In this document: positions 14,441 through 64,000 of the stretch, one piece after another
How the letters are laid out: every line of letters begins with the position of its first letter
How positions within the stretch are numbered: position 1 is the stretch's first letter
DNA from: Trypanosoma brucei
Lineage: Eukaryota
Assembly: GCA_000002445.1 (NCBI GenBank)
Contig: CM000208.1
Span: 1,632,001-1,696,000, forward strand
DNA: 64,000 nt
Direction of reading: 5' to 3'
The notes under the pieces: generated by a model
Told to the model about the DNA's origin: nothing
The model's database searches: none
Seen by the model: the letters and a program-made list of their open reading frames with translations, nothing else
Translations under genes and position numbers: made by a program

Positions 14441-14471
14441 TTTTTCTGTTTTTTTTTTGCCTCTTCTGTCT
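14441..14471 (+). promoter_or_regulatory. polypyrimidine tract upstream of the CDC20-like gene
   Basis: A 31-nt T/C-rich run lies 40 bp upstream of the ATG at 14512. Confidence 0.4.
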
Positions 14472-14511
14472 AGGTGTTTTATTTTGTCTTTTTTTGATTC
14501 ATCGATAGGTA

Positions 14512-16305
14512 ATGGACGGTGGCTTCCCTTGGACCAAACACGTGGAATGGAACCGTTTTCGAAACTTAGGTGAAGGTGTTGGTGGGTTTAAAGGCTTTAG
14601 GTGTTGTGGGGGCGGTCAAATGCGTGGTCTATGTGGCACGGAGCTCAGTGTGTGTTGTGACTGTTGTTTAGCTGTTAACGAGAGCGTACATAATCGCCTT
14701 GCGGTTGGCTTGAAAAGGGCAACACCTGAGCCGTTGTGGCAGCCCACCCGTTTAACTTCACCGTACTGCATTTTGTGTGCGAATGGCCTTCGGGATGATT
14801 TCTACACTTCGTGTATGTCCTGGGGTAGGGAAAGTGTTGCCCTCTCTTTGGGTGAAAAAGTCCTTTTGTTTAAATCGTCTTCCCCACGTGAGAGTGCGGT
14901 TTCTCTGAATTTGAGCGGGGAAGCCTGCGGTTATTCAGAGTCAATATCATCAGTAGCTGTTTCCCAGTTTTCGGATTCTCATTGCTTTCTTGGCGGCGTA
15001 AATGGGGCTGTTGGGTTGTATGAGTCACATGGGGGTGGAGAATTATCACTATCGAGCTCCTTTGAGATGCCGCCCCCTCTCTTTGGGGGTGATTTGGCTT
15101 CCGAGGCTGCTTTTAGTGGTGCAACCACCAGTATACGCTGCCTATCGACAACTAATGTTCATCCGTGGGTGGTAGCTGCCGGGACGGCGGCGCATGGACT
15201 TTTTGTACTTGATAGCCGTTTTACAACCCCTGCTGCACGGATGTGTGGCTCCGACCTGTGGAACTCAGTTGATTGTAGACATTCTCAGAGACCACTGTAT
15301 CCTTCTGAGGCGATTTCGCTGCTTTCGTCTTTGAATGGCATTTGCGGTGTGTCGTGGAACTCGTCTGGTTCCCTGGTTGCGACAGGGGAAAGTGGCGGCT
15401 TGGTGAACATATGGTCCCTTTCTAACACTCGTTCTCCTGTGCAGCGGATTAGATTGCCCAGCGCTCATACGACGGTGAAGGCCGTTGCGTTTCACCCGAC
15501 CAACCCATACGAGCTAGTTCTTGGTGGGGCTGCAGATGATGGCTGTGTCCGCGTTTATGATGTCTCATCTGCGACGCCGCATTACAAGTGGGGCGTATCT
15601 ACGGGATGCCAAGTGACACAGGCATTGTATTCTCCTGACGGTTCATTCATTGTTTCTGCACACGGCGCACGGCTCAAGGCCAGTGTAGCCATTGACGCGG
15701 CCAGTGCTCAGTCGCACGCGACAAGAGCCGGTGTATCGCGTACTGATAGCGGTGGAGGGGGTTGGGGAGCAGGTGATGAGTTGCAGTGGTTGACAGAGAA
15801 GTTTGAGCGGGCTATGAAATGTAGCGAGAATGCGGCAGAGTCCTCGATCGACACGTGTTTAGGGTTCAACAGGGCGTCGAGTTCTGGACTGAACGAGGCT
15901 AAGCCCTTATTGTCGGAGGCGCCACCTTTCTCTCTTGTGATGTGGAGGAAAGGTACGCAGCACCAGGGAACGACCCCAATGAGTTTCACCCACGGGAGTG
16001 GTATCCATCATCAGTGTGCCGCAGGTTCACCTTCACGCCGGTGTGAACCACTTCCACTTGTTTCTATGTACACGATGATGGGCCATCGATCGCGACCGCT
16101 GCAACTTGCAGTCCCTTTCTCACAAACTGCAGACCAGGGCTGTATTGCCTCAATCGCTGGCGGTGCTGATTGTACAATTCGGTTCTGGAAGTGTTTTTAT
16201 TCTAGAAGCGAAATGGTAAACTGGGGGCAGCGTGTGTGCGCCTCGTTAAGGACTGCGATCACAGAAGAGGATGTTGAAGAAATGACGGCCATGCCTCTGC
16301 GCTAA
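14512..16305 (+). CDS. CDC20/Fizzy-family WD40 protein (APC/C co-activator-like)
   Basis: WD-repeat blades show Cdc20-like blocks: ICGVSWNSSGSLVATGESGGLVNIWS, HTTVKAVAFHPTNPYELVLGGAADDGCVRVYDV and SPDGSFIVSAHG. A long insertion precedes the last blade (ADCTIRFWKCF). The protein ends in LR, resembling the IR tail of Cdc20/Cdh1. Confidence 0.6.
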   Translation: MDGGFPWTKHVEWNRFRNLGEGVGGFKGFRCCGGGQMRGLCGTELSVCCDCCLAVNESVHNRLAVGLKRATPEPLWQPTRLTSPYCILCANGLRDDFYTSCMSWGRESVALSLGEKVLLFKSSSPRESAVSLNLSGEACGYSESISSVAVSQFSDSHCFLGGVNGAVGLYESHGGGELSLSSSFEMPPPLFGGDLASEAAFSGATTSIRCLSTTNVHPWVVAAGTAAHGLFVLDSRFTTPAARMCGSDLWNSVDCRHSQRPLYPSEAISLLSSLNGICGVSWNSSGSLVATGESGGLVNIWSLSNTRSPVQRIRLPSAHTTVKAVAFHPTNPYELVLGGAADDGCVRVYDVSSATPHYKWGVSTGCQVTQALYSPDGSFIVSAHGARLKASVAIDAASAQSHATRAGVSRTDSGGGGWGAGDELQWLTEKFERAMKCSENAAESSIDTCLGFNRASSSGLNEAKPLLSEAPPFSLVMWRKGTQHQGTTPMSFTHGSGIHHQCAAGSPSRRCEPLPLVSMYTMMGHRSRPLQLAVPFSQTADQGCIASIAGGADCTIRFWKCFYSRSEMVNWGQRVCASLRTAITEEDVEEMTAMPLR

Positions 16306-16999
16306 GAGGGGCGCGCACATATCGAAACGTGTGCGTGCTTATAGATATAGAGATAATTTGGTGAGTCGCCCCAGTGGCGGTTCCGTCCCTCTCCTCCTTC
16401 ATAACGTTATATGTTGTTTGTTTGACACGCTTGAAGTCCCTCGCGTTTTTTCACACCCTAATAGCGAAGTAAGCCATTCACCCGCGGGACTCCCCGATCC
16501 CTCATTTTTTTGATTGGTTACCTCGTTGCATAGACACATGGCAAGAACATTATTTTCTTGAGCAAACATGTGGCCGGCGTTGTTTTATTTATATTTTTTC
16601 CCCTTAGAATGAAAGAGAGCGATGACAGTAAGGATGATGTTTTAAAGACCATGTGGGTCCTTTTCACTTTGTATCAAGTCTCACAACGGCTGTAGAGATA
16701 GCGGCCGAATTTCGGGCGAAGATTTTTCAAAAAAGTAATTAGTTAGAACGCGTGCCGCAAATGGTGGTGCAACTCCTCCTATTTCTTTTTTTTAAAAAAA
16801 CATCGATTATTGTTTCAGCTACGAGCGTGTGGTAAACTAGTTGGTGGTGCACCCCGCATCAATTCATCTTTGGAACGTCTGCATGGAGGTTGGTTGGTTG
16901 TGGCCACCTAGAAGAACTCTTCTTTACACACCCTTTTTTTTATTCGTAGAATATCTTAGACACGAGGGTTTGTAGCGTATTTGTCCCCACCAGTGAGGA

Positions 17000-18214
17000 A
17001 TGGAGTATCGGTGGCTGAATAGGGTTCTCACTGTGGAATTATGCATGTCCATCATAGCCTTTCATCTCGTGCATTTCACCGGAATCGACTGGAATGCTTA
17101 CATGCAGGAGGTGAAGGGCTTTCTGGATGGGGAGCTCGACTACATGAAGTTGAAGGGTGACACCGGCCCTTTGGTGTACCCCGGCGGTTTCGTATGGTCC
17201 CATTCCGCACTTTATTTCATGACGAAAGGTGGTGTTGATGTCGAGATGGCACAGTGGCTGTACTTGGGGATCTATGTGATGGTGCTGGTGTTAGTTGCAC
17301 ATTTGTACTACAACTCGGGGCTTCGTGGGAGGTTGTTCATTCGTCTCCTCCTTTCCAAGCGAATCCGGTCACTCTTCATGTTCCGGCTCTTCAACGATTG
17401 TTGGGCCATGTTTCTGGTCTACTTGTCGGTTATCTGTTTCGCCAGGGGGCGGCGATGGACTGTTGGATGTTTGTTGTACAGTATGGCCGTGTCAGTAAAA
17501 ATGAACATTTTTCTCTTTGCTCCTGGTCTTCTACTGATTCTGTGCAAATCACTTCCTTTTACCGGGGTGGTCAGATGTCTCGCAGTGTGTGCATTGTGGC
17601 AAGTAGTTGCGGGGCTGCCCTTTCTTCTCCACAATCCACGGTCATATATTGTACGGTCGTTTGACCTTGGTCGTGTATTCACGTATCGATGGACTGTCAA
17701 TTTCAAGCGCATCTCGGAAGAGATATTTTTTTCGTCCAAGTTTAGCAGGAGTTTGTTGGTGATGCTAGCTGTCAGCTGGTTGTTAGTGTGTTTCCGGCGT
17801 TGGTCCAAGCGTGCTTACCGGCGTGGCCGGTGTGAGAAGCGAGAGGGGACTGTGGTACTTGTGGGTGCGTCAGATGAAGAGGTCTTTCACAATGTCACCT
17901 TAACCCTGATGGAGTCTAATATGATCGGCGTTATCTTCGCTCGTTCATTACACTATCAGTTTTTTCTGTGGTTTTTCTACTTCGTACCGTTTGTCCTCTC
18001 TGCCACACGACTACCGCTGGTGGTGAAAGTGGTTGCCTTTTTAGCAATCCAATACGGATTCGAGGTGTACCCGAGCACAACCGCGTCATCCAGTGTTCTT
18101 CTGAGTGGCTTTTTGTGTGTGTGGCTGGGCATGCTCCTTTTTCCCTCTGAATATAGCGAGACTACTGGAAAAGAGACGACGATAACCCTTACAGCTGTGA
18201 AAAGGGGAAAGTAG
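17000..18214 (+). CDS. ALG3: ALG3 dolichyl-P-Man:Man5GlcNAc2-PP-dolichol alpha-1,3-mannosyltransferase
   Basis: Multi-pass membrane protein. The conserved ALG3 N-terminal block GIDWNAYMQEVKGFLDGELDYMKLKGDTGPLVYPGGFVW matches. Numerous hydrophobic segments follow. Confidence 0.8.
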   Translation: MEYRWLNRVLTVELCMSIIAFHLVHFTGIDWNAYMQEVKGFLDGELDYMKLKGDTGPLVYPGGFVWSHSALYFMTKGGVDVEMAQWLYLGIYVMVLVLVAHLYYNSGLRGRLFIRLLLSKRIRSLFMFRLFNDCWAMFLVYLSVICFARGRRWTVGCLLYSMAVSVKMNIFLFAPGLLLILCKSLPFTGVVRCLAVCALWQVVAGLPFLLHNPRSYIVRSFDLGRVFTYRWTVNFKRISEEIFFSSKFSRSLLVMLAVSWLLVCFRRWSKRAYRRGRCEKREGTVVLVGASDEEVFHNVTLTLMESNMIGVIFARSLHYQFFLWFFYFVPFVLSATRLPLVVKVVAFLAIQYGFEVYPSTTASSSVLLSGFLCVWLGMLLFPSEYSETTGKETTITLTAVKRGK

Positions 18215-50965: not shown

Positions 50966-53188
50966 ATGCAGCCACTACAGGCAACCGAACAGACAAAGAA
51001 GAAGCTGAAGTCGTTCGGTAAAAACCGGCGTGAGATTAGGGTGCGCACCACCTATGATGAAAAGGGCAACTGGATGGCCGTGAACAACCCGGACAAGCTG
51101 AGGCAAACGGAGTGCCCAGCTCTTGACCGTTACTATCGTGACCTTCAGCGGTTGTGTACGCCACAGGAGTGGGGCGATGAAATGGCGCTGTTCCGCCAAC
51201 CACTTCCCACTACATTTTGGATCAATGACACGGATCCCTTAGCCCCCGAAATTAGTCGCTATTTCGAATCGCTGCCTGACACAGTAGTCGAGGCTATTCC
51301 GTGGTACCCGATTCGCGGGATGGCGTGGCGTATAAAGGCTGGGAAGACTGAATTTCGGCGTCCCGAAATGAAGGAATTACGGAGTTTTTTAATTCGTCAT
51401 ACTGCCATTGGGACTGTATCGCGGCAGGAAGAGGTGTCGATGCTCCCGCCTTTCTTGTTGGACATTCAACCCACGGACAAATGCCTTGATATGTGCGCAT
51501 CCCCAGGCTCAAAAACAGCTCAAATTCTTGTTTCGTTGGGGCGGCATAAGGTTGTACCTCATGATAGTGATGCCTCACCCTTTCCGTTCGACTACGACAG
51601 CGAGGGGCTTGTGGTCGCTAATGATATTGACACCAAGCGAGCCAACATGCTGGTGCACCAAGTTAAGCGTATGAGGTTGCTATTCCCGTTTGCACTCTTT
51701 ACCAATCATGACGCACAATTCTTCCCCAATATGGTGTTGACCCCTGGAGAAGCGCAACCCCACACATGTGGACAGCAAACTACCGGCGATGATGGCGCCA
51801 CCGAGCTTCGGTTTGATAAAATACTTTGTGACGTTGTCTGTTCTGGTGACGGAACAATCCGCAAAGCTCCACACATACTCAAGATGTGGTCGCCCCGGGA
51901 GGCTATATCGCTGCAGAAGGTGCAGATTCAAATAGCATTGCGTGCCTGTCACCTTCTTCGCGTCGGCGGTCGCCTTGTCTACAGCACGTGCTCTATGAAT
52001 CCCATAGAAAATGAGGCGGTTGTAGCGCAGATTATCCACCGCACGAAAGGGGCTATGAAACTTATTGACTGCTCCTCGTTGCTCCCCGGGTTGCGGTTCA
52101 CCCCGGGTCTCCAAAAGTGGGTGGTGACGAACTCAAAGGGCAATGTGGTGGAAGCTCCATGCCAGGAAGCACACGAAGCACTCTTCCCGCCTGGAACGCC
52201 AGGGGCCTATTCGTCGGATGCGGTTGATGCTATGGACTTGCGCCTGTGTTTGCGACTGCTTCCTTCCCATTGCAACGGCGGCGCATTCTTCATTGCAGTG
52301 CTCAGCAAAGTTTCTGAGTTCCGCTTCCATAAGCATGACGAAACAACGCAGCCAGCTATCACGGTGCCGGCGCACTCTGCCCGCATTTTTGAACGCGAAG
52401 ACAACACATCAGTCGACACGGAAGTTACTCAGGATGGCCTCCCTTTAGGAAAAAGAGAAAGAGAGGAAAACGCACTCGACTTGGCCAAAGATGAGGTTCG
52501 CGGGAGAGGTGTTCCTCCGCAATTTGTTGCAGCTCCGGAGCCCATTATCAACGTCATAACGGACTTTTACCGTGTATCTAGCTTTCCGACGCGTCTGCTT
52601 GTCGTTCGTACAGCAAATGGGCAACGGGAGCTGAAACTTTCCGGTGGGTCTGTCTGCTCCATTGTTTCGCGCTCTGCTCTCGAGGTTTTGCAGCATAAGA
52701 CGGACACTCTTATTGTGGTAAGCGCTGGCCTTCGTGTTTTCGCCCACGAAAATCTTGACGGCGGCTGGCGCATTGCCAGTGAGTCGGCTGTTCTCTTTTC
52801 CAAACTAATGTCCCAGTCCCCGCGACGGCTGTGCGTTCACGTAAGTTTGGTGGAGCGCCTTTTGCAAGGAGGAAAGCTAAAAGACATTCCCTTTAATGAT
52901 ATTGAAGACGAGGCGGTACGTTTCCAGTTGGAGTCAATGGATATTGGCACTGTTCTGCTGAAAATTGAAGCCCCCGGTGCGGTCGGAGGTGTTCTTTACT
53001 CCGTGGCGCTGAGGGCACGTAAGCGGTTGCAGTTATTAGTGGACCAGGAGGACATCGTGGGATTGAGACTGCGGTTGGGACTCCCCGCGACGGAGGCAGC
53101 AAAGGTGGAGGATACCAACGCACAACAGGGGGAGGGTGGTGTTATACCTGCTGATTGCGCGGAGGAAGGGGCGGAGCGCATTCCTTAA
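50966..53188 (+). CDS. NOL1/NOP2/Sun-family RNA (cytosine-5)-methyltransferase (NSUN2/Trm4-like)
   Basis: SAM-binding motif I DMCASPGSKT, motif IV FDKILCDVVCSGDGTIRK, and motif VI TCS (LVYSTCSMNPIENE) carrying the catalytic Cys. Overall length and architecture resemble Trm4/NSUN2. Confidence 0.85.
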   Translation: MQPLQATEQTKKKLKSFGKNRREIRVRTTYDEKGNWMAVNNPDKLRQTECPALDRYYRDLQRLCTPQEWGDEMALFRQPLPTTFWINDTDPLAPEISRYFESLPDTVVEAIPWYPIRGMAWRIKAGKTEFRRPEMKELRSFLIRHTAIGTVSRQEEVSMLPPFLLDIQPTDKCLDMCASPGSKTAQILVSLGRHKVVPHDSDASPFPFDYDSEGLVVANDIDTKRANMLVHQVKRMRLLFPFALFTNHDAQFFPNMVLTPGEAQPHTCGQQTTGDDGATELRFDKILCDVVCSGDGTIRKAPHILKMWSPREAISLQKVQIQIALRACHLLRVGGRLVYSTCSMNPIENEAVVAQIIHRTKGAMKLIDCSSLLPGLRFTPGLQKWVVTNSKGNVVEAPCQEAHEALFPPGTPGAYSSDAVDAMDLRLCLRLLPSHCNGGAFFIAVLSKVSEFRFHKHDETTQPAITVPAHSARIFEREDNTSVDTEVTQDGLPLGKREREENALDLAKDEVRGRGVPPQFVAAPEPIINVITDFYRVSSFPTRLLVVRTANGQRELKLSGGSVCSIVSRSALEVLQHKTDTLIVVSAGLRVFAHENLDGGWRIASESAVLFSKLMSQSPRRLCVHVSLVERLLQGGKLKDIPFNDIEDEAVRFQLESMDIGTVLLKIEAPGAVGGVLYSVALRARKRLQLLVDQEDIVGLRLRLGLPATEAAKVEDTNAQQGEGGVIPADCAEEGAERIP

Positions 53189-54089: not shown

Positions 54090-55010
54090 ATGTCCACAGC
54101 GAAGAGTTTTCCGATGGCTCAACTTTCTACACGGGCTCAGTATAGCCGTATGCAACGAGAGTTTGTGCAGTTACAAAGGCAGGAGAATCCACGAAATATA
54201 AACTTTACCACTTCTTTAAAAAATCGCCACAAGAATCGCTATTTGGACATATTGGCCAATGAGGAGACAATATATCCACCGGTCCTAAAGGCCGTCGGGG
54301 CACAACCTGGGCGTTATCCCTATATCAATGGGAATTTAATCGATCTTGATTTGCCACATACGTTTGTCGCTTGTCAGGCTCCCGTACCGCAAGGTGTCCC
54401 TGACTTTTTAGAGACCCTCAGTGAGAAGAAGGTGGACCTTGTTGTGATGCTCACTAAACTACGGGAGGGTGGTGTTTTGAAGGCAGAGCGTTATTGGCCG
54501 GAAGAAGAGGAAGATTCCTTGTCATTTCCGGAATCTGGACACGATGCTATAAAGGTGACAAGGGATGCGGAGGCGTCGTACGAGGTTGATGCTGAGCTTG
54601 ACATCGTGCGTCGTCCGCTCGTTATCCATGTACCCGGTAAGCCAATGCATCGGGTGCTGCAAGTGCAGTACGTCGGTTGGCCCGATCACGGTGTTCCAGA
54701 ATCCGCAGCATCATTTGACGAGCTCTTGTCGGTAATCAAGAACTGCGTAACCACTTCCCCCATATTGGTACATTGTAGTGCTGGTATTGGTAGGACGGGG
54801 ACACTAATAGGTGCCTATGCCGCTCTACTTCACATTGAGCGCGGGATCCTTACTGATTCAACCGTATACTCTATAGTTGCAGCGATGAAGCAAAAGCGAT
54901 TCGGTATGGTTCAACGGTTAGAGCAGTATGCAGTTATCTATATGACTGTTCTGGGCCGGCTCGGTGTGGATATTAGTGGACTGGTGTCGACACTTAACTT
55001 AAAAGCGTAG
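54090..55010 (+). CDS. classical protein tyrosine phosphatase (CX5R active site)
   Basis: Active-site P-loop VHCSAGIGRTGTLIG. The WPD loop is VGWPDHGVP. The Q-loop region is QRLEQY. Confidence 0.85.
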   Translation: MSTAKSFPMAQLSTRAQYSRMQREFVQLQRQENPRNINFTTSLKNRHKNRYLDILANEETIYPPVLKAVGAQPGRYPYINGNLIDLDLPHTFVACQAPVPQGVPDFLETLSEKKVDLVVMLTKLREGGVLKAERYWPEEEEDSLSFPESGHDAIKVTRDAEASYEVDAELDIVRRPLVIHVPGKPMHRVLQVQYVGWPDHGVPESAASFDELLSVIKNCVTTSPILVHCSAGIGRTGTLIGAYAALLHIERGILTDSTVYSIVAAMKQKRFGMVQRLEQYAVIYMTVLGRLGVDISGLVSTLNLKA

Positions 55011-55888: not shown

Positions 55889-57415
55889 ATGGCTGGTGCG
55901 GAACAACGACAATTTCACAGCGTAGAGGAAGTTAGCGTAGAGTTAGGTCGCGCATCACTGCATGCTTCTTGGGGTTTCAAGACATATGACGGTGTCTGCC
56001 CCCTTCGTGTACGTGATGTAGCAGCGGAGATTCCTGAAGGTGTAAGGCGCGGTGATGAAATAATTGTAATTAACGGAATCCGACCAGGGAGCTATGATGA
56101 GGGAATGTCATTGCTGCATCAGGCGCAGTCAACCGTTCAGCTATGCGTTCGTCGTAAAGTCAGTGGAAGTAAGTGTGCGACAACAGTTGATGAAGGTGCA
56201 GAACCGCGGGAGTGTGAGTATATTGGTATCGAGCGAAACAGCTGGCGCAATCGAGCCTCACTCCATTCGCTTTCCCCTAGCGCGGAATGGGAGGGCACTA
56301 TATCCCCACAGCAACAACAACGGAAACCTGCGGACCAAACTACTGCAACATCATGTCACCACTCAGAGTCGGGTGTGAGGACGTCTGCACAGCTTGCACT
56401 TGACAAGGTGCTTTTGGCTGCGTGTGGAAAAGACGCACATTGTGAGGACACAATCACTGAAGGTACTACCGACACGGAGGGGCCACCAAGTGGGCCGAGC
56501 AGGGCCCCACTTTCCATTAACAGTCAAGTTGCTGGTATATGGCGAGGCATTTTAACTAGGAAACGGAAGCGTCTTGATGACGCCTCAAGGGATAGCAAAA
56601 ACTACATGGACGTTTGTAGTGTGCTTCCCAAACTTACCCACCAGGTCATTTACGACTGCCAAAACTGCCCCTTTTCAATTGAGGAGGGTTTCGTACCGGA
56701 GTTTCACAAATCTGTCCAGTACATTATGACTGAAAGGGCGCTGTCCCAAAAGCACGCCGCCGGTGACGAGGACGGAGACGGGGACGCGAAAGTGATGCTG
56801 GCGCCGGTGAAGGATCGCTCCGACGAAGATTTGTCAGCGGTGATGGCACAGGTAGAGGCTAAGAAGGCTCAGTGCGAAAAGGAAGTGAGCCAACGCGACA
56901 CTGTTGCTGATGTACACCGAATGAAAAAGATGTTGAGCTCGCAGCAAAGTGGCATGCTGAAGGTGGTGGAAAGCCACCGTGAGAGCCTTCTGCAGAAACT
57001 GAGGGAAGATGTGGGTTGGTATCGAGAGACGGAGTGCAGCGCCCAGGACTTCTTTGCTTTGCACTCAAAGGCCATCTCATGGTGTAGGAAAGCGTCGATA
57101 AAGCAATCTCCCGTTGATTCTAAGGTGAAGTACCCCGCATTTCACCATGGAAACCGCGAGGGCCATAAGCGGCACGAGCACCCTCAACTGCTCCCACCAC
57201 CGCCACCGCCACCGCCACCACCGCTGTCACAGCCGCATTTTCCACCCCCACCGTTTGCAGCGGCCCCTTCTAGCGCTGCTGTTGTCCCTGTGAGTACGGT
57301 TTCACCCCGTGGTAGGGTTGGATACGTTGCTCCCCCAGGGTATGCCAGGCGGCTTCCTCAGCACCCTCCTCTTTTTGATGTACGAACGCTGAATGCGACG
57401 TTGTATCACCGGTAG
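55889..57415 (+). CDS. hypothetical protein with C-terminal polyproline tract
   Basis: 508-aa ATG ORF. No catalytic domain recognised. A run LLPPPPPPPPPPLSQPHFPPPP sits near the C-terminus. Confidence 0.4.
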   Translation: MAGAEQRQFHSVEEVSVELGRASLHASWGFKTYDGVCPLRVRDVAAEIPEGVRRGDEIIVINGIRPGSYDEGMSLLHQAQSTVQLCVRRKVSGSKCATTVDEGAEPRECEYIGIERNSWRNRASLHSLSPSAEWEGTISPQQQQRKPADQTTATSCHHSESGVRTSAQLALDKVLLAACGKDAHCEDTITEGTTDTEGPPSGPSRAPLSINSQVAGIWRGILTRKRKRLDDASRDSKNYMDVCSVLPKLTHQVIYDCQNCPFSIEEGFVPEFHKSVQYIMTERALSQKHAAGDEDGDGDAKVMLAPVKDRSDEDLSAVMAQVEAKKAQCEKEVSQRDTVADVHRMKKMLSSQQSGMLKVVESHRESLLQKLREDVGWYRETECSAQDFFALHSKAISWCRKASIKQSPVDSKVKYPAFHHGNREGHKRHEHPQLLPPPPPPPPPPLSQPHFPPPPFAAAPSSAAVVPVSTVSPRGRVGYVAPPGYARRLPQHPPLFDVRTLNATLYHR

Positions 57416-57786
57416 AGCGATGCAAGTTGACGAGTGCGCTGTGTCTTTTGGTTCCCCAGTCGCGGTCCTAATGATAATTTGGTACTTCCGGCGCAAGGTT
57501 TAAGGTGTTGGTCCTCTCTTCCACCCCTCTTTTGCGCGGTAGTGGACGGTTGCGGCATTTGTGGATGCTTCTGCTCTGACTTCATTTGCTTTTGTTTACC
57601 TGAAGGGTACGCGAGGGGTGTGTAACATTCTTAAACATATATATATATATATATAATGTACATGTGTACGTCCGTGTGTGGTATCGTGTGCGTGCTGTAA
57701 GGGAGCCCACGGGCTTTGCTTAAACCATTTTTACTTCTCACTAACGTGATATCGCTCCCTCTAAAGTCACATTCTTTGCGGGTTGG

Positions 57787-58977
57787 ATGGAAGCTGTTGT
57801 GTATGAGATCGAGCAGGACCCAGATACAAGGTTGCATCGGCTAAGAAATGCTATGCTAGCCTTCGTTTCTGTACCCATGGCTTCTCCTCCTGCAGTGGCT
57901 CTTCTCGTTTCTCTCTCCCTGGACGAACCCCCGGGTTCTTCACGCAAGCAGCAGGATCGGGCCACAACAAAAGCAACGGCGGTCGAGACCCAACTTCGGA
58001 GCGCGTGCGACGATCGAGCCGTGCTTCTGAAGTGGTTGCGAGCCGAGATGAACATCGTGTTAGATATTCCTGTAGCCGCTTCTTTTGAACCTAGTGGGGC
58101 GGAGCAACTCTCCGTACTCTCCACATGGCAACAAGACCAGCACCGGTCCCCCCTGCGTAAAGCGGATATCGTATTACTTTCGTTGCGTAATGTGGCACCG
58201 CTGTGGGATAATCACGAGACTAGTTCATCCCTGCTCGGTCGTCAGCGTGACGTCTGTGCCCCACACCTTGGGTTGTTTCTTCTTGCTCATCAGAGCCTAT
58301 TGCTTGATGTGACCTGCTGTGTCGGAGGTGGAAAGCTGGAGTTGTTATCCCCTGCGGCCTTCAGTCCACTTCGTGCACGGCACATCGCGAAAGGCCGCAC
58401 AGCAGCCGTAGCATTTTACGGCTGTTGGCTGTCGCTAGCAGCAACACCAAGCGGTTTTCACATCTTACAGAAGAGACTTCAGTCACTAAACGAGCACGTT
58501 CTTTCTGCTATGCAGTTGCCCTTGTGCTGTTCTTACGGCGGAAAAGTTGGCAACCTTCAGCATAATTTATCAACGGTACCCAGCCCAGCAGGGGCGGCGC
58601 GACCCCGTGAGGTCCACACGGTTTCCGCACCACTGCTGCCCACGCGTCCATTAAGGGACATATTCAGTCTTCTGGGTTTCCTATTGGCTTGCCCGCACGT
58701 TGACTATTACAGCGAGGCCACTAAGTTTTGTACTCGGGTGGCGACAAGGAGAAAAACTGCATTGGTAACAGAGAACAAGTGTTTCAGCGGCTGCGCGACA
58801 CACAGTGAGGAGGTGGTTAAGAGATATGACAGAAAACGGATGAGAGGCGTGATTCGCGCATCATTGTCCATGCGTTCAAAGCGGCAACAGCACTCAAGTG
58901 CTCCAGATAAAAAACAAACTTTCACACAGCTAATAACATCGGAAGAACCTCTGTGGTATGAAGACTGCGGGTCTTAA
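57787..58977 (+). CDS. hypothetical protein
   Basis: 396-aa ATG ORF on the coding strand with no recognisable domain. Confidence 0.35.
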   Translation: MEAVVYEIEQDPDTRLHRLRNAMLAFVSVPMASPPAVALLVSLSLDEPPGSSRKQQDRATTKATAVETQLRSACDDRAVLLKWLRAEMNIVLDIPVAASFEPSGAEQLSVLSTWQQDQHRSPLRKADIVLLSLRNVAPLWDNHETSSSLLGRQRDVCAPHLGLFLLAHQSLLLDVTCCVGGGKLELLSPAAFSPLRARHIAKGRTAAVAFYGCWLSLAATPSGFHILQKRLQSLNEHVLSAMQLPLCCSYGGKVGNLQHNLSTVPSPAGAARPREVHTVSAPLLPTRPLRDIFSLLGFLLACPHVDYYSEATKFCTRVATRRKTALVTENKCFSGCATHSEEVVKRYDRKRMRGVIRASLSMRSKRQQHSSAPDKKQTFTQLITSEEPLWYEDCGS

Positions 58978-59257
58978 GAGGGGGTCTCCACAGCACCCAC
59001 TACTTCATCTCTCTGAGATCATATACGCTGTCTCGGATTTTGTCTCCACTGCGGTTTGTTGTTGTTTTTGTGGATGGGGTGACTATCCTCTTTTTCAGCC
59101 ATCCTCCTCACTCCATTGTCATTCTCTTTGTGTTTCTCGAACCTAAATAGAAAAAATACGTTGAGAAGGTGCGTATTTGCTTTTCGGTGAACAAAGGTTT
59201 GTATAAAATAAGCCCGCTTTCTCTTATACATAAGCCCCACTTACCCTTGTAAAAAAG

Positions 59258-60727
59258 ATGATGCAAGGATTTCCCTCCTTAGGGGAAAAGGACCCAGCTG
59301 CCAAGCCACCAGCAGAGGGAAAACCGACCTCAGCTTCGGGAGAGAAACAACCGAGCGAAGCAGTACAGGGAATACCGCTATACCAAGGTGATGGTGATGA
59401 TAAAGAAGGATTGAAACGTTTTGTGGTACAGGGGTATAAGGATGTGTGGGCTGCAATATTATACATTTTATGCATTTTCGCCATCGCTGGAATCGGAGTA
59501 CACGCAATGTGGTCGAGAGGCTCCTCCGAAGAAAAACAAGAGGTTAAAAAAACAACAGCAGAAAATGAGCCTTCAAATTCAAAGTCCCTTTGGAGTGTCT
59601 ACTTTCTTGTTGGTGTGGCTGCTGCCGCTTCCATCGGTGCGGCGTCCGTGTCGTTTCTACTGATGCGTATGTTTCCACGCAAGACAATTCTTTTCGCAAA
59701 CATTGCCGCCATAATTATAAACATCATTTCAGCTTTGCTAGCAATATTATCAGGACACATGGTAAGCGGTATCCTCATGATGACATTATGTGCCCTGCAC
59801 ATAATGTGGTTTTTCTTTGCACGGCACCGAATTCCTTTTGCTGCAGAACTTCTCAAGGCCTCTATCGATGTGTTGTCTGGCTACAAGGCGGTATATTTAT
59901 TCAATGTCATGTTATGTGTTGGTTGCACAGGATTACTTATGCTGTGGGCAAACGCTTTTATGTGGACGTATCAAAGAAGTCAAGCGCAAGATTCATCATT
60001 CTCCGGTATAATTTACCTTTTCCTTATGCTTTTCTTATTTTGGACATCGCAGGTGACAACTAATCTGATGCATGTAACAACTGCTGGACTTACTGCTACA
60101 TGGTACTTTGCTGGTAAGGAGAATATGCCAAAGAATCCCACCCTCGCCTCATTCAAGCGAGGTACCACCACAAGCTTCGGCTCCATTTGCTTTGGGTCAC
60201 TGCTTGTGGCAATTATCCGTCTCATACGGTGGCTCGTGTCAACCGCAGAAGACAGTGAACATGAAATATTACGCTGTGTATTCCTTTGTATTATTGGTTG
60301 TTTGGAGAGGCTGATGGAATACTTCAACACATACGCATTTGTTCATGTTGCCATCTATGGTTGTGGGTACATTGAAGCAGCGAAAATGACATGGGAGTTG
60401 TGTAAACAGTGTGTGTTTTCTGCCCTGTTCAATGACACTCTGATTGATGTAACACTCGGGCTACTTGCTACTTGTGGTTCGCTACTGGTTGGTAGTGTTT
60501 TTGGTTTTCTCTTAAAATCCTGGGCAGCATTCGCGCTTGGTTTTGCCGTTTCTATATTGGTTCACCTCCTCATATTCTCCCCCGTGGGTAGTGCTGTAAC
60601 CACCTTATTCGTATGTTATGCGGAAGTGCCTGAGGGCCTTGAGCACTCATCCCCTGACTTGTACGCGGCTCTTCAGAGAACTGACCAAAACGGCACATCA
60701 AATGGAGCAGCACCTCCACGTGTGTAA
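59258..60727 (+). CDS. CTL/Pns1 (choline transporter-like, Choline_transpo domain) membrane protein, tandem copy 1
   Basis: Multi-pass membrane protein. The C-terminal block CFGSLLVAIIRLIRWLV...RCVFLCIIGCLERLMEYFNTYAFVHVAIYGCGYIEAAKMTWELCKQ parallels the CTL1/Pns1 conserved core (C..C..CCLWCLEKCL.YLN.NAY...AI.G..FC.SAKDAF). Confidence 0.75.
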   Translation: MMQGFPSLGEKDPAAKPPAEGKPTSASGEKQPSEAVQGIPLYQGDGDDKEGLKRFVVQGYKDVWAAILYILCIFAIAGIGVHAMWSRGSSEEKQEVKKTTAENEPSNSKSLWSVYFLVGVAAAASIGAASVSFLLMRMFPRKTILFANIAAIIINIISALLAILSGHMVSGILMMTLCALHIMWFFFARHRIPFAAELLKASIDVLSGYKAVYLFNVMLCVGCTGLLMLWANAFMWTYQRSQAQDSSFSGIIYLFLMLFLFWTSQVTTNLMHVTTAGLTATWYFAGKENMPKNPTLASFKRGTTTSFGSICFGSLLVAIIRLIRWLVSTAEDSEHEILRCVFLCIIGCLERLMEYFNTYAFVHVAIYGCGYIEAAKMTWELCKQCVFSALFNDTLIDVTLGLLATCGSLLVGSVFGFLLKSWAAFALGFAVSILVHLLIFSPVGSAVTTLFVCYAEVPEGLEHSSPDLYAALQRTDQNGTSNGAAPPRV

Positions 60728-61407
60728 AACTTCTTAAGCTCATGCATATAAGGAGGATATGTGTTTGTCTCTCTTCTGCAAAAACTTTCCCTCCCATACC
60801 CAATTTCGCACACTCGCACCGTGTGAAGAAGAGTCAAATATCTTTTGTTTTTGATTCACTATATATAATGCACTGAAGCGTGTGTTATGCATGCAAATAA
60901 ATTGATAACATCGCTGACTCTTCTTTTTGTTCTATTATATTACTCTGTTCGATTTGCTCTTGACTATTTTGTATTTTCTTTCCGTTTCATGTGATGGATG
61001 CGAGGGACATAACCACAACATATTGAATGTGTCGCGGTGTAAACTGCTCTGTTGTGAGCGATCGGTATTGTGTTAGTATTTTTGTTCCAAGTGTTGAGGA
61101 AGTTGAATAGAGTCCTGATGCAGTCCACTCATGCGGTAAGCAGTGATGCGCCTTAGTGTGAGAATTCCTTTGATACTGTGTGATTTGCACACTTCCATTC
61201 TTCTTCGTCACTGGAAGCTGTTGCTACTGCATACTAATGCATCATCATTTCCTATTTCCTTTCCTCTTCCATAATTTTCCATTTTCTCTGTTTTTTAATC
61301 AAACAAATAAGATATATTGCAAGTGTACGCAATTGCTATCCAGCAACAAAGGGCTATAGACACTATTATCTCAGTGATAAGGTATTGTTTATTTCTGAAG
61401 AAGGACG

Positions 61408-62880
61408 ATGAACAAGCAATACGGAACAGAAACAAATCGCTACGACTATGATGTGTGGCAGGAAAATCAGCGGAATTGTCGGCAGGAATGTTCACCACAA
61501 GCTGTGCCGCTACAAGGAATACCGCTATACCAAGGTGATGGTGATGATAAAGAAGAGCTGAAACGTTTTGTGGTACAAGGGTATAAGGATGTGTGGGCTG
61601 CAATATTATACATTTTATGCATTCTTGCAACTATTGGGCTTGGAATATATAATATTGTGAAGCCTGATGCTTCAGGAGAAGAAGAAGAGGAAAGTGTCGT
61701 ATCGGTTAAATCATCTAACCCGTTTTCTGGTGTGTTTAAAAGTGTTTACATTTGGATTGCCGTTGCTGGTGGAATTGCCATAGCTGTGGCGTCGCTTTCC
61801 TTTCTCTTTATGAGGATGTTTCCTCGGAAGATTATTATTGTGGCAAATGTTGTCTCGATTATCATCAATATTGGAGGCGCCGCTGCCGCCATTGTGATGG
61901 GGGTGCTTCCACTTGGCATTGCTTTACTCATTATGTGCGCTATGCACATACTGTGGTTTTACTTTGCACGGCACCGAATTCCTTTTGCTGCAGAACTTCT
62001 CAAGGCCTCTATCGATGTGTTGTCTGGCTACAAGGCGGTATATTTATTCAATGTCATGTTATGTGTTGGTTGTGCGGGGTTTACCATATTATGGGGGTAC
62101 GCAGCTGTTCCTTCACTAGAAACTGCCAGTAACAAAGGTGACAGTGGGGCACTAGCGGTTTTGCTACTTCTTTTCCTTATGTTGGTTTTTTTTTGGTCAT
62201 CTCAAGTTACTGGAAATCTGATGCATGTAACAACTGCTGGACTTACTGCTACATGGTACTTTGCTGGTAAGGAGAATATGCCAAAGAATCCCACCCTCGC
62301 CTCATTCAAGCGAGGTACCACCACAAGCTTCGGCTCCATTTGCTTTGGGTCACTGCTTGTGGCAATTATCCGTCTCATACGGTGGCTCGTGTCAACCGCA
62401 GAAGGTAGTGAACATGAAATATTACGCTGTATATTCCTTTGTATTATTGGTTGTTTGGAGAGTTTGATGGAATACTTCAACACATACGCATTTGTTCATG
62501 TTGCCATCTATGGTTGTGGGTACATTGAAGCAGCGAAAATGACATGGGAGTTGTGTAAACAGTGTGTGTTTTCTGCCCTGTTCAATGACACTCTAATTGA
62601 TGTAACACTGAATCTACTTGTTACTTGTGGTTCGCTACTGGTTGGTAGTGTTGTCGGTCTACTCTTCAGATCCTGGGTAGCATTCGCGCTTGGTTTTGCC
62701 GTTTCTATATTGGTTCACCTCCTCATATTCTCCCCCGTAACCAGTGCTGTAACCACCTTATTCGTATGTTATGCGGAAGTGCCTGAGGGCCTTGAGCACT
62801 CATCCCCTGACTTGTACGCGGCTCTTCAGAGAACTGACCAAAACGGCACATCAAATGGAGCAGCACCTCCACGTGTGTAA
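61408..62880 (+). CDS. CTL/Pns1 family membrane protein, tandem copy 2
   Basis: The C-terminal ~300 aa are almost identical to copy 1. The N-terminal ~130 aa are divergent. The 3' flanking sequence is identical to that of copy 1. Confidence 0.75.
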   Translation: MNKQYGTETNRYDYDVWQENQRNCRQECSPQAVPLQGIPLYQGDGDDKEELKRFVVQGYKDVWAAILYILCILATIGLGIYNIVKPDASGEEEEESVVSVKSSNPFSGVFKSVYIWIAVAGGIAIAVASLSFLFMRMFPRKIIIVANVVSIIINIGGAAAAIVMGVLPLGIALLIMCAMHILWFYFARHRIPFAAELLKASIDVLSGYKAVYLFNVMLCVGCAGFTILWGYAAVPSLETASNKGDSGALAVLLLLFLMLVFFWSSQVTGNLMHVTTAGLTATWYFAGKENMPKNPTLASFKRGTTTSFGSICFGSLLVAIIRLIRWLVSTAEGSEHEILRCIFLCIIGCLESLMEYFNTYAFVHVAIYGCGYIEAAKMTWELCKQCVFSALFNDTLIDVTLNLLVTCGSLLVGSVVGLLFRSWVAFALGFAVSILVHLLIFSPVTSAVTTLFVCYAEVPEGLEHSSPDLYAALQRTDQNGTSNGAAPPRV

Positions 62881-63589
62881 AACTTCTTAAGCTCATGCAT
62901 ATAAGGAGGATATGTGTTTGTCTCTCTTCTGCAAAAACTTTCCCTCCCATACCCAATTTCGCACACTCGCACCGTGTGAAGAAGAGTCAAATATCTTTTG
63001 TTTTTGATTCACTATATATAATGCACTGAAGCGTGTGTTATGTATGCATTTTACCGGCTTCACCATGATAAACCACATACTTGATGTAGTAGGTGAAATT
63101 AGATGCCGCAGTATCTGGTCGTGTGTAGCAGTAAATATATTAATAAATAACGACTCTTTATTATCGTAACTGCGCAAAAAGTGTTTAACATGAGCGATAT
63201 TTTTTATGATACGTACGACATTATCGTGAGCGATCGGTATTGTGTTAGTATTTTTGTTCCGTGTGTTGAGGAAGTTGAATAGAGTCCTGATGCAGTCCAC
63301 TCATGCGGTAAGCAGTGATGCGCCTTAGTGTGAAAATTCCTTTGATACTGTGTGATTTGCACACTTCCATTCTTCTTCGTCACTGGAAGCTGTTTCTACT
63401 GTATACTAATGCATCATCATTTCCTATTTCCTTTCCTCCTCCATCATTTTCCATTTTCTCTGTTTTGTAATCAAACAAATAAGATATATTGCAAGTGTAC
63501 GCAATTGCTATCCAGCAACAAAGGGCTATAGACACTATTATCTCAGTGATAAGGTATTGTTTATTTCTGAAGAAGGACGATGAACAAGC

Positions 63590-64000
63590 AACACGGAACA
63601 GAAACAAATCGTTACGACTATGATGTGTCGCAGAAGGATCGGCGAAATTCTGATTCTCGGGAGTGTTCACCACATGCTGTGCCGCTACAAGGAATACCGC
63701 TATACCAAGGTGAAGGTAATAATCAAGAAGGATTGAAACGTTTTGTGGTACAAGGGTACAAGGATGTGTGGGCTGCAATATTATACATTTTATGCATTCT
63801 TGCAACTATTGGGCTTGGAATATATAATATTATGCGGAAGGATTCTTCGATGAAGGATGTAGAAAGCACTAATACAACAGCAGAAAATGAGCCTTCAAAT
63901 TCAAAGTCCCTTTGGAGTGTCTACTTTCTTGTTGGCGTGGCTGCTGCCGCTTCCATCGGTGCGGCGTCCGTGTCGTTTCTACTGATGCAGAAGTTTCCAC
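63590..64000 (+). CDS. CTL/Pns1 family membrane protein, tandem copy 3 (5' part only, runs off the window)
   Basis: ATG at 63590 sits in the same context as copy 2 (identical 5' flank). The first ~80 codons resemble copy 2. It then switches to the copy-1-type sequence NTTAENEPSNSKSLWSVYFLVGVAAAASIGAASVSFLLM. Confidence 0.65.

What the first reader, a model, noticed from the sequence alone, without database searches (positions are those of the whole stretch)
59258..64000. Tandem array of CTL/Pns1-family transporter genes with mosaic, gene-conversion-like structure
Three head-to-tail copies are visible, and the array may continue beyond the window. Copies 1 and 2 share an almost identical C-terminal ~300 codons and 3' spacer, but have different N-terminal ~130 codons and 5' flanks. 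Copy 3 shares the 5' flank and first ~80 codons with copy 2, then switches to the copy-1-type sequence ENEPSNSKSLWSVYFLVGVAAAASIGAASVSFLLM. This patchwork suggests repeated segmental gene conversion. It concentrates diversity in the extracellular or N-terminal TM region of a putative plasma-membrane transporter, possibly affecting substrate specificity or surface-exposed loops. Choline_transpo-domain proteins are poorly characterised in kinetoplastids.
Basis: seen in the sequence. Interest (0 to 1): 0.55.

Follow-up and report, generated by a model that had tools for sequence, protein, structure and literature searches.

The report
Known mosaic CTL/PNS1 gene array
This is the start of a four-gene tandem array of choline-transporter-like (PNS1-type) membrane protein genes on Trypanosoma brucei chromosome 10, whose patchwork of identical and very different segments is real, was made by gene conversion, and was already catalogued in 2007 and 2010.

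Summary
The window is T. brucei brucei TREU927 chromosome 10. It holds copy 1 (59258-60727, Tb927.10.6720), copy 2 (61408-62880, Tb927.10.6730) and the first 140 codons of copy 3 (63580-64000, Tb927.10.6740) of a head-to-tail array. Independent assemblies show four copies.

Both complete copies hit PF04515 at E~1e-67. An AlphaFold model matches yeast PNS1 (TM 0.70/0.80).

The mosaic is far beyond chance. Copies 1 and 2 alternate between 96-100% and 30-50% nucleotide identity. Copy 3 is copy-2-like up to ~63831 and copy-1-like from ~63871 (runs test p<=1e-4). Synonymous divergence is ~0-0.2 in shared blocks and saturated in variable blocks, and the flanking spacers are identical. This points to conversion, not just constraint.

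It is not new. This is array "103 / Tb10.70.0040 (DUF580)" of Jackson 2007, and of the 2010 T. b. gambiense genome paper (PHI p<0.001, GARD 6 breakpoints).

My additions are incremental:
- Variable blocks map to the N-tail, peripheral helices M1-M4 and the outer loops. The pocket-bearing core, the amphipathic helices and the C-tail are homogenised.
- Conversion tracts differ between strains.
- The array is a salivarian expansion of a syntenic locus that is single-copy elsewhere.

The "plasma-membrane transporter" label is doubtful.

The parts
59258..60727 (+). Copy 1 CDS (489 aa; isoform A; EAN78086/Q38AT4; Tb927.10.6720, old ID Tb10.70.0040)
   Evidence: ORF. PF04515 at E 4.4e-67. Exact match to the TREU927 protein. 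The 1470-nt length matches the Jackson 2007 entry. The ID is inferred from the order of neighbours and from protein masses.
59258..59363 (+). Unique 5' end of copy 1 (codons 1-35). The repeat unit begins only at about 59364, so the array's left boundary lies inside copy 1.
   Evidence: No similarity to the other units upstream of 59364. The upstream flank 58978-59257 occurs once per array in other strains.
59364..59476 (+). Homogenised block 1 (pre-M1 motif LQGIPLYQG...VVQGYKDVWAAILYILCI and the inner half of M1). It matches 61511-61623 in copy 2 and the corresponding part of copy 3.
   Evidence: 95.6% nt identity; dN 0.011; alignment.
59390..59404 (+). TREU927-specific micro-conversion tract in copy 1. 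GATGGTGATGATAAA (DGDDK) is the copy-2 type, whereas copy 1 of T. b. equiperdum and T. b. gambiense carries the copy-3/4 type (EGNNQ).
   Evidence: Four linked substitutions within 11 nt; protein differences at residues 45-49.
59477..59783 (+). Variable block 1 of copy 1 (outer M1, M1-M2 loop, M2, M3, M4). About 50% nt identity to copy 2, with synonymous sites saturated.
59784..59925 (+). Homogenised block 2 (end of M4, amphipathic helix AH1 RIPFAAELLKASIDVL, start of M5). It matches 61929-62072.
   Evidence: 96.5% identity; dS 0.000.
59926..60016 (+). Variable block 2 of copy 1 (outer M5, M5-M6 loop, outer M6).
   Evidence: 35-50% identity; dS not calculable because saturated.
60017..60895 (+). 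Homogenised block 3 (inner M6, AH2, M7, M8, AH3, M9-M10, C-tail, stop codon, and 168 nt of 3' spacer). It matches 62170-63048. There is a moderately diverged patch at 60440-60544 (87.6%).
   Evidence: 95.9% over 879 nt. The 3' spacer is 100% identical and follows all four copies in other strains. dS is 0.04-0.16.
60896..61053 (+). Spacer middle segment, type x. It follows copies 1, 3 and 4 in other strains.
61054..61407 (+). Shared 5' flank of copy 2, with a polypyrimidine tract (probable trans-splicing region). It matches 63226-63579.
   Evidence: 97% identity; sequence; present upstream of copies 2, 3 and 4 in all strains. Jackson 2007 reported a conversion event here between copies 2 and 3.
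61408..62880 (+). Copy 2 CDS (490 aa; isoform B; EAN78087/Q38AT3; Tb927.10.6730)
   Evidence: ORF. PF04515 at E 4.1e-68. Exact match. Called 'choline transporter Tb927.10.6730', phosphorylated on its N- and C-terminal domains, in PMC13524880.
62881..63048 (+). Shared 3' spacer after copy 2
63049..63225 (+). Spacer middle segment, type y. It is found only after copy 2, in all three strains.
63226..63579 (+). Shared 5' flank of copy 3
63580..64000 (+). Copy 3 CDS, first 140 codons (isoform C; EAN78088/Q38AT2; Tb927.10.6740). It is copy-2-like up to about 63831 and copy-1-like from about 63871.
   Evidence: The translation equals the N-terminus of P0012 exactly. The mass of 54,224 Da matches Tb927.10.6740. 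Runs test.
63832..63870 (+). Breakpoint interval in copy 3 (M1-M2 loop), where affinity switches from copy 2 to copy 1.
   Evidence: The copy 2/3 blast match ends at 63831. The copy 1/3 match starts at 63871. Informative sites switch at alignment codon 101/102.

Best explanation
The region is the 5' part of a four-gene, head-to-tail array on T. brucei chromosome 10. The genes are Tb927.10.6720-6750, called 'array 103 / Tb10.70.0040' in Jackson 2007. They encode PNS1-type members of the choline-transporter-like (SLC44, PF04515) family: 10-TM bowl-shaped membrane proteins.

The array arose by tandem duplication of a locus that is single-copy and syntenic in other trypanosomatids. It now evolves by partial concerted evolution. 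Non-allelic gene conversion, and occasional unequal exchange, repeatedly copies stretches between units. This keeps about 60% of each unit almost identical even at silent sites: the pre-M1 motif, AH1, inner M6 to M8, AH3, the C-tail, and most of the spacer.

Other segments have diverged so far (30-50% nt identity) that they no longer convert: the N-terminal tail, outer M1, M2-M4, the M1-M2 and M5-M6 loops, and parts of M9/M10. Copy 3 is a mosaic with a copy-2-like flank and head and a copy-1-like body, built from tracts of different ages.

Shown here: the block structure, silent-site identity, strain-specific tracts, the fold, and expansion in Salivaria. Inferred: sequence divergence itself blocks conversion (mismatch-repair rejection of diverged heteroduplex, known for T. 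brucei from the literature as I recall it). Also inferred: the isoforms share one core activity and differ in their peripheral, luminal/extracellular and N-tail surfaces, meaning partners, lipids, sorting or regulation rather than a different central pocket. The biochemical activity of the family is unresolved.
For: - Identity: exact protein matches to TREU927. Protein masses fix the gene IDs.
- Family: PF04515 at E~1e-67. PNS1 (9f63) at E 5.5e-32 by sequence. AF2 model with pLDDT 78 and pTM 0.77. Foldseek TM 0.70/0.80 to 9f63, then CTL1.
- Four copies in two other assemblies, with the same order of isoforms A and B.
- Mosaic statistics.
- Conversion rather than constraint: dS is 0-0.2 in shared blocks and above 1 or saturated in variable blocks. 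Non-coding spacers are identical.
- Ongoing exchange: a TREU927-specific DGDDK tract in copy 1. A 17-residue cluster differs between TREU927 and T. b. equiperdum copy 4. T. b. gambiense lacks isoform C and has isoform E.
- Concerted evolution: T. brucei copies are monophyletic at 100% bootstrap in homogenised blocks, and at 90% and 60% in variable blocks.
- T. congolense paralogues show the same pattern: core 88% and C-tail 93%, against 35-42% in variable blocks.
- Single copy at the syntenic locus in T. theileri and L. tarentolae. Orthogroup counts are Tb 6, Tco 3, Tv 2, Tc 1.
- Published: Jackson 2007 Table 1 and supplements. Jackson 2010 Table 2, with PHI p<0.001, 4 LRT breakpoints and 6 GARD breakpoints.
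- Topology map of variation. PNS1 pocket equivalents are mostly invariant among isoforms.
Against: - Conversion versus unequal crossing-over cannot be separated for every tract from three assemblies.
- The idea that divergence blocks conversion was not tested here.
- Trees on the most variable 115 columns give only 60% support for T. brucei monophyly. Some variable blocks could therefore pre-date the T. brucei/T. congolense split.
- Copy number in TREU927 is ambiguous in the literature: 4 in GenBank, in Jackson 2010 and in Jackson 2007's array-catalogue supplement (the file listing each array's coordinates); 5 in Jackson 2007 Table S1; and a fifth locus tag, Tb927.10.6760, in an orthogroup table.
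- The topology assignment rests on an AF2 model plus the published PNS1 topology, not on coordinates I could inspect.
Confidence: 0.9

Rival explanations
1. Selection-maintained diversity of exposed surfaces. The variable blocks are kept different by diversifying or balancing selection on the extracellular or luminal face, for substrate or ligand specificity or for antibody avoidance, while conversion homogenises the rest.
For: The two most variable segments are the predicted outer loops M1-M2 and M5-M6, with 0% invariant positions. Three residues aligned to the PNS1 putative pocket differ between isoforms: T/G at 268, R/S at 351 and G/T at 444. The expansion is restricted to bloodstream-dwelling salivarian trypanosomes. 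Isoforms are detected differently in bloodstream and procyclic proteomes: 6730 appears only in the procyclic set.
Against: Crude dN/dS in variable blocks is 0.4-0.6, although dS is saturated. Variation is equally strong in the lipid-facing helices M2-M4 and in the cytosolic N-tail. Most pocket equivalents are invariant. The proteins fractionate with Golgi, flagellar-pocket, endosomal and lysosomal markers, not with known surface transporters. Transport activity of the family is disputed. Orthologous isoforms are nearly identical between subspecies at 99-100%, so there is no sign of rapid turnover.
Confidence: 0.2
2. Purifying selection alone. The identical blocks are identical only because the protein core is highly constrained, with no gene conversion.
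For: The identical blocks coincide with the family's most conserved columns (invariant list).
Against: Silent sites are also identical, with dS 0.00-0.09 in blocks of 41-136 codons. So are 168 nt plus 354 nt of non-coding spacer. The same core is only 78-86% identical in protein between T. brucei and T. congolense. Tract boundaries differ between strains.
Confidence: 0.02
3. Assembly artefact. The copies, or the chimeric copy 3, result from mis-assembly of a repetitive locus.
For: Repeats of about 2.15 kb with 880-nt near-identical stretches are hard to assemble. Reported copy number varies between 4 and 5 across sources.
Against: Copies differ by 22% overall and have unique segments. The same A-B-C-D order and the same chimeric copy 3, with 6 aa differences, are in the independent T. 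b. equiperdum assembly, which is colinear with the window at 99.5% over 12.6 kb. T. b. gambiense has A-B-D-E. Peptides for several isoforms are detected.
Confidence: 0.01
4. Relaxed constraint or decay of the distal copies. The strongly divergent isoforms D and E are drifting towards loss of function rather than being functionally specialised, and conversion of the core merely delays their decay.
For: D and E sit on long branches. They are 20-28% identical to anything in M2-M6, no closer than to Bodo or Leishmania. Isoform E has lost the near-invariant N392/D393 and carries a 12-residue insertion. E is absent from T. b. brucei and T. b. equiperdum.
Against: D is an intact ORF conserved at 99% between subspecies. 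It is detected as protein in both life stages (Tb927.10.6750). dN/dS is below 1.
Confidence: 0.15

Closest known systems
Array 'Tb103 / Tb10.70.0040 (DUF580)' in Jackson 2007 (BMC Evol Biol 7:54, PMC1855330) and in Table 2 of the T. b. gambiense genome paper (Jackson et al. 2010, PMC2854126)
   Same: It is the same locus: chromosome 10, a 1470-nt first gene, an 8,022-bp span, and DUF580, which is the former name of PF04515 (from my memory of Pfam). Published findings: Ds 0.48 and Dn 0.29; monophyly of copies at 500/500 (concerted evolution); a conversion event between copies 2 and 3 in the 5' UTR; PHI p<0.001; 4 LRT and 6 GARD breakpoints; 3 shared and 1+1 subspecies-specific isoforms.
   Different: Those papers list the array only in tables, as a 'hypothetical protein'. 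They give no block map, no relation to protein topology, and no link to the CTL/PNS1 fold, which was solved later.
Saccharomyces cerevisiae PNS1 (PDB 9f63) and the PNS1-type branch of the CTL/SLC44 family
   Same: PF04515. Sequence E 5.5e-32 over residues 113-471. The predicted fold matches at TM 0.70/0.80. There are 10 TM helices with three amphipathic helices and no large extracellular domain. Equivalents of R354, E393, Y394 and D432 are conserved.
   Different: About 25% identity. Several PNS1 pocket residues are replaced: E293 to Q, R296 to T/G, W390 to R/S, H397 to T, E492 to S and R495 to G/T. The yeast gene is single-copy, not an array.
Human CTL1/SLC44A1 (PDB 7wwb, 9qu3)
   Same: Same Pfam domain and same core fold (Foldseek E 5.6e-08, TMt 0.67).
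   Different: 16-19% identity. CTL1 has a large extracellular domain between M1 and M2, whereas the trypanosome loop is about 20 residues. Choline transport by CTL1 is itself disputed.
Other variable T. brucei tandem arrays with sequence mosaics (ISG65, GRESAG4 adenylate cyclases, amino acid, adenosine and hexose transporters, BARP)
   Same: Head-to-tail units in one polycistron, shared spacers, significant recombination signals and subspecies-specific recombinant isoforms. 31 of 35 variable arrays show mosaics.
   Different: Here the contrast between blocks is extreme: dS about 0 next to saturated blocks within one CDS. The left array boundary lies inside the first CDS.

Membership tests
Choline transporter-like / SLC44 / PNS1 family (Pfam PF04515) | Significant match to the PF04515 profile above the gathering threshold | tested here: met
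   227.1 and 230.4 bits against a cut-off of 26.9, covering profile positions 1-326 of 326.
Choline transporter-like / SLC44 / PNS1 family (Pfam PF04515) | SLC44 fold: 10 TM helices in a bowl with three membrane-parallel amphipathic helices (M4/M5, M6/M7, M8/M9) | tested here: met
   The AF2 model (pLDDT 78, pTM 0.77) has helices consistent with M1-M10 plus the amphipathic helices. Only PNS1 and CTL1 match in the PDB at E<=0.001. Fold description from PMC13160678.
Choline transporter-like / SLC44 / PNS1 family (Pfam PF04515) | Choline (or ethanolamine) transport activity | not testable with these tools
   No functional study of the T. brucei genes was found. CTL1, PNS1 and CherI gave no choline uptake in oocytes.
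Metazoan CTL1-type subfamily | Large extracellular domain between M1 and M2 | tested here: not met
   The M1-M2 loop is about 20 residues (89-109, low pLDDT). The closest solved relative is PNS1, which lacks this domain. The genes therefore belong with the PNS1 type.
Plasma-membrane nutrient transporters of T. brucei (operational class) | Co-fractionation with known surface transporters (hyperLOPIT secretory/endocytic 2) | tested here: not met
   Tb927.10.6730, 6740 and 6750 are classified to, or nearest to, secretory/endocytic 1 or 3, not 2. This is literature data, not my experiment.
Tandem gene array under (partial) concerted evolution | At least 3 head-to-tail paralogues with shared intergenic spacers in one transcription unit | tested here: met
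Tandem gene array under (partial) concerted evolution | Within-species copies group together against orthologues of sister species | tested here: met
   T. brucei monophyly is 100% in homogenised blocks and 90% in all variable blocks, but only 60% in the most variable 115 columns. Published value 500/500.
Tandem gene array under (partial) concerted evolution | Statistically significant recombination or conversion signal, with silent-site homogenisation | tested here: met
   Permutation tests. dS contrast. Published PHI, LRT and GARD results.
VSG-type segmental gene conversion for antigenic variation | Silent donor archive copied into a single expressed site; monoallelic expression | tested here: not met
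   All copies are intact ORFs inside one + strand polycistron with their own splice-site flanks. Several isoforms are detected as protein together.

The most novel reading that the evidence does not exclude
The conversion-resistant blocks (N-tail, M1-M4, outer loops) are actively maintained by selection as a small set of functionally distinct 'cassettes' on a shared, constantly homogenised core. Under this reading, salivarian trypanosomes use the array to make stage- or host-specific versions of a PNS1-type protein. The natural chimeras (isoform C, and the strain-specific tracts) would then be a ready-made domain-swap series for finding out what this functionally orphan eukaryote-wide family does.
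Probability: 0.15. Interest if true: 0.5.

Novelty: already known. Interest (0 to 1): 0.2.

Why it matters
In itself it matters little. The genes are annotated, and the mosaic and concerted evolution of this exact array are in two published surveys.

There is modest residual value. The CTL/SLC44/PNS1 family is found across eukaryotes, and its function is now openly disputed. African trypanosomes are unusual in having expanded it into several expressed isoforms. These keep an identical pocket-bearing core and differ in the peripheral helices, the loops and the N-tail. Because of the shared core, one RNAi or CRISPR reagent could remove the whole family, and single isoforms or natural chimeras could then be added back. 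That makes the family experimentally tractable in this organism.

Tried and rejected
- Scanning genome contigs for related loci found nothing, because that collection holds only bacteria and archaea. I used the look-up of encoding contigs instead.
- I tried to fetch the TREU927 DNA downstream of the window through copy 3's protein. It is not on record, so copies 3 and 4 were studied in T. b. equiperdum and T. b. gambiense and through TREU927 protein records.
- Raw identities suggested that copy 2 is closer to a T. congolense paralogue (52%) than to copy 1 (43-45%) in the variable blocks. That would mean the paralogues are older than the species split. Bootstrapped NJ trees gave 0-1% support for that pairing. 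I dropped the idea, and the age of the variable blocks stays unresolved.
- I checked whether a 2026 paper on a trypanosome 'cell surface transporter' for phenanthridines concerned this family. It does not; that protein is an SLC35F5 homologue.
- Literature searches for a functional study of the T. brucei CTL genes found only passing mentions.
- Rfam and Tandem Repeats Finder found nothing in or near the array.
- A single unequal crossover cannot be the origin of copy 3. Its copy-2-like and copy-1-like parts have different ages: dS is 0.25 in the head, about 0 in codons 102-141, and 0.5-0.7 in later A-like blocks.

Full report
**What is there**

The window is Trypanosoma brucei brucei TREU927 chromosome 10. 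The two complete ORFs of the finding, 59258-60727 and 61408-62880, are exact matches to EAN78086/Q38AT4 and EAN78087/Q38AT3. The ORF at 54090-55010 is the tyrosine phosphatase TbPTP1. A third unit starts at ATG 63580 and runs off the window. Its 140 codons equal the N-terminus of EAN78088 exactly.

Protein masses in a published table fix the locus tags. Tb927.10.6710 (43,696 Da) is the ORF at 57787-58977. Tb927.10.6740 (54,224 Da) is copy 3. Tb927.10.6750 (55,337 Da) is copy 4. Copies 1 and 2 are therefore Tb927.10.6720 and 6730.

All large ORFs of the window lie on the + strand, so it is one polycistron. No Rfam family and no short tandem repeat is present.

**Check of the observation**

The repeat period is 2147-2175 nt. 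Copies 1 and 2 share three near-identical blocks:
- 59364-59476 = 61511-61623, 95.6% identical.
- 59784-59925 = 61929-62072, 96.5% identical.
- 60017-60895 = 62170-63048, 95.9% identical, including 168 nt beyond the stop codon.

Between these blocks, identity is only 30-50%.

Copy 3 shares its 354-nt 5' flank and about 84 codons with copy 2 (61054-61656 = 63226-63831, 94.6%). It then becomes copy-1-like (63871-64000 = 59549-59678, 96%).

The clustering of differences is far outside chance:
- The index of dispersion is 14.5, against at most 1.68 in 5000 permutations.
- The longest identical run is 190 nt, against at most 46 in permutations.
- Sites that tie copy 3 to copy 1 or to copy 2 form 22 runs, against 77 expected (p<=1e-4).

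The shared C-terminal part is interrupted by a 36-codon divergent island (codons 223-258). The divergent N-terminal part contains a conserved island (codons 37-73).

**The whole array and the artefact question**

The independent T. b. equiperdum assembly is colinear with the window at 99.5% over 12.6 kb. It shows four units (489, 490, 490 and 505 aa), followed directly by a BRCT gene, Sec1 and a gamma-tubulin-complex gene. T. b. gambiense DAL972 also has four units, but a different set: 489, 490, 505 and 517 aa.

Aligning all copies gives five isoform types:
- A is copy 1.
- B is copy 2.
- C is copy 3, a B-head/A-body mosaic that is absent from T. b. gambiense.
- D is the 505-aa form.
- E is the 517-aa form, found only in T. 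b. gambiense.

The copies differ strongly, and the chimeric copy 3 recurs in a second assembly with only six amino-acid differences. Assembly duplication is therefore excluded.

One uncertainty remains. GenBank, Jackson 2010 and Jackson 2007's array-catalogue supplement (the file listing each array's coordinates) give four copies in TREU927. Jackson 2007 Table S1 says five. An orthogroup table lists a fifth tag, Tb927.10.6760, plus an unplaced-contig copy, Tb11.v5.0578. I could not read TREU927 beyond the window.

**Conversion or constraint**

Between copies 1 and 2, synonymous divergence in the shared blocks is 0.000 (codons 182-222), 0.04 (430-489), 0.09 (259-394) and 0.20 (37-73). The moderately diverged patch at codons 395-429 has dS 0.16. 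In the variable blocks it is above 1 or not calculable. The non-coding spacers are identical as well. The same protein core is only 78-86% identical between T. brucei and T. congolense. Purifying selection alone cannot explain this, so sequence has been copied between units.

Exchange is recent and ongoing:
- TREU927 copy 1 carries a copy-2-type tract, GATGGTGATGATAAA, at 59390-59404. Copy 1 of the other two subspecies has the copy-3/4 type there.
- TREU927 and T. b. equiperdum copy 4 differ by 17 clustered residues in positions 429-460.
- The subspecies differ in which isoforms they hold.

Copy 3 is not the product of one crossover, because its parts have different ages: dS is 0.25 to copy 2 in the head, about 0 to copy 1 in codons 102-141, and 0.5-0.7 in later copy-1-like blocks.

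The spacer adds a detail. Its middle segment comes in two types. Type x (60896-61053) follows copies 1, 3 and 4. Type y (63049-63225) follows only copy 2, in all three strains. The repeat ends about 412 nt after the last stop codon and begins inside copy 1 at about codon 36.

**What the proteins are**

Both complete copies match PF04515 over its full length (E~1e-67). The nearest solved structure by sequence is yeast PNS1 (9f63, E 5.5e-32), followed by human CTL1. An AlphaFold2 model of copy 1 has pLDDT 78 and pTM 0.77. In the PDB it matches only PNS1 (TM 0.70/0.80) and CTL1 at E<=0.001. There is no large M1-M2 ectodomain, so these are PNS1-type, not metazoan CTL1-type.

I laid the paralogue variation on the model's helices and the published PNS1 topology (PMC13160678).
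- Essentially invariant among isoforms A, B, D and E: AH2, M7, M8, AH3 and the C-tail (fraction invariant 0.78-1.00), and the pre-M1 motif (0.81).
- Variable: the N-tail (fraction invariant 0.06), the M1-M2 loop (0.00), M2-M4 (0.08-0.10), the M5-M6 loop (0.00) and M9 (0.31).

Of 12 PNS1 pocket or cavity residues that I could align, eight equivalents are the same residue in all five isoforms: Q265, R324, E350, E354, Y355, T358, D397 and S441. Of those eight, only R324, E354 and Y355 match the PNS1 residue. D393 changes only in isoform E. Three positions differ among isoforms: T/G at 268, R/S at 351 and G/T at 444. So diversity sits mainly on the periphery, rim and tails, not in the central cavity.

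**Function**

I found no functional study of the T. brucei genes. The family's transporter status is disputed. CTL1, PNS1 and Arabidopsis CherI showed no choline or ethanolamine uptake in oocytes, and their bowl shape fits no known transport mechanism.

In hyperLOPIT spatial proteomics, Tb927.10.6740 and 6750 are detected in bloodstream forms, and 6730, 6740 and 6750 in procyclic forms. They fall in the 'secretory/endocytic 1' cluster (Golgi, flagellar pocket, trafficking, lysosome) or the '3' cluster (surface and endosomal). They do not fall in cluster 2, which holds the amino acid, nucleoside and hexose transporters. Tb927.10.6730 is phosphorylated on its N- and C-terminal domains, which fits both ends being cytosolic. 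Tb927.10.6720 mRNA is CSD1-bound and changes during RBP6-driven development.

My working model is inference. The isoforms share a conserved core activity of unknown chemistry. They differ in lipid- or partner-facing helices, luminal or extracellular loops, and a regulatory N-tail.

**Evolutionary setting**

The neighbourhood is conserved: PTP1, two hypothetical genes, CTL, BRCT, Sec1 and GCP. The CTL gene is single-copy in T. theileri and Leishmania tarentolae. T. congolense has three members and T. vivax has two or three. The expansion therefore belongs to the salivarian trypanosomes.

T. congolense paralogues show the same contrast, with core 88% and C-tail 93% against 35-42% in the variable blocks. 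NJ trees give T. brucei monophyly at 100% in homogenised blocks, 90% in all variable blocks and 60% in the most variable 115 columns. Support for cross-species paralogue pairs is 0-1%. This agrees with concerted evolution but leaves the age of the variable blocks open.

Isoforms D and E sit on long branches. E has lost the near-invariant N392/D393.

**Comparison with what is known, and novelty**

This locus is array '103, Tb10.70.0040' of Jackson 2007. That entry gives chromosome 10, 1470 nt, coordinates 1641891-1649912, 'DUF580', Ds 0.48 and Dn 0.29. Monophyly was 500/500, the orthology scenario was rejected, and one conversion event was found between copies 2 and 3 in the 5' UTR. [quoted passage not shown] There it has 4+4 copies, 3 shared and 1+1 unique isoforms, PHI p<0.001, 4 LRT breakpoints and 6 GARD breakpoints.

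The tests it proposed (PF04515, breakpoint analysis, copy number) have been done, or are done here.

What I add is incremental:
- A block map in window coordinates.
- The silent-site contrast between block types.
- The strain-specific tracts.
- The mapping onto the recently solved PNS1/CTL1 fold.
- The caution about the transporter label.

**Verdict**

The feature is real and correctly described in outline. It is explained by partial concerted evolution through gene conversion, and it is already known. Interest is low (0.2).

Noticed in passing
L003 (T. vivax SOPI01000403) 1400-17000: In T. vivax the repeated unit is about 5.56 kb. It contains the two upstream hypothetical genes as well as the CTL gene, in three near-identical units. 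Some CTL copies are split by frameshifts (e.g. 15276-15833 and 15835-16680). This is either a recent segmental triplication or long-read assembly noise.
   Followed up: partly
beyond window end (TREU927 chr10, about +2 to +5 kb): Sources disagree on copy number in TREU927. Four copies appear in GenBank, in Jackson 2010 and in Jackson 2007's array-catalogue supplement (the file listing each array's coordinates). Five appear in Jackson 2007 Table S1. A fifth locus tag, Tb927.10.6760, plus the unplaced copy Tb11.v5.0578, sit in the same orthogroup in PMC10361982 Suppl. Data 11.
   Followed up: partly
window 60896-61053 and 63049-63225: The middle of the intergenic spacer comes in two unrelated types. 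Type x follows copies 1, 3 and 4. Type y follows only copy 2. This is conserved in T. b. brucei, T. b. equiperdum and T. b. gambiense. The origin and role of the copy-2-specific segment are unknown; it may be a 3' UTR element giving copy 2 its own regulation.
   Followed up: partly
L002 (T. b. gambiense) 10357-11910: Isoform E (517 aa, T. b. gambiense only) has replaced the family-wide near-invariant N392/D393 (FNDTLID to FSCFFVD). It also carries a 12-residue insertion in the M9-M10 region. It may be a decaying or neofunctionalised copy.
   Followed up: no
window 55889-57415 and 57787-58977: Two conserved hypothetical genes lie between TbPTP1 and the array. They have no Pfam hit. The first ends in a long proline-rich stretch (PPPPPPPPPPP). 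Both are syntenic in T. theileri, and they are co-amplified with the CTL gene in T. vivax. HyperLOPIT places Tb927.10.6700 in the nucleus.
   Followed up: no
window 57000-64000: The array is more A+T-rich (G+C 0.38-0.47) than the genes just upstream (0.52-0.60). Jackson 2007 lists a low GC3 (0.377) for this array.
   Followed up: no
window 54090-55010 and 50966-53188: Upstream neighbours are TbPTP1 (the tyrosine phosphatase that controls stumpy-to-procyclic differentiation) and an NSUN2-like RsmB/F RNA methyltransferase with a pre-PUA domain. These are ordinary annotated genes.
   Followed up: no
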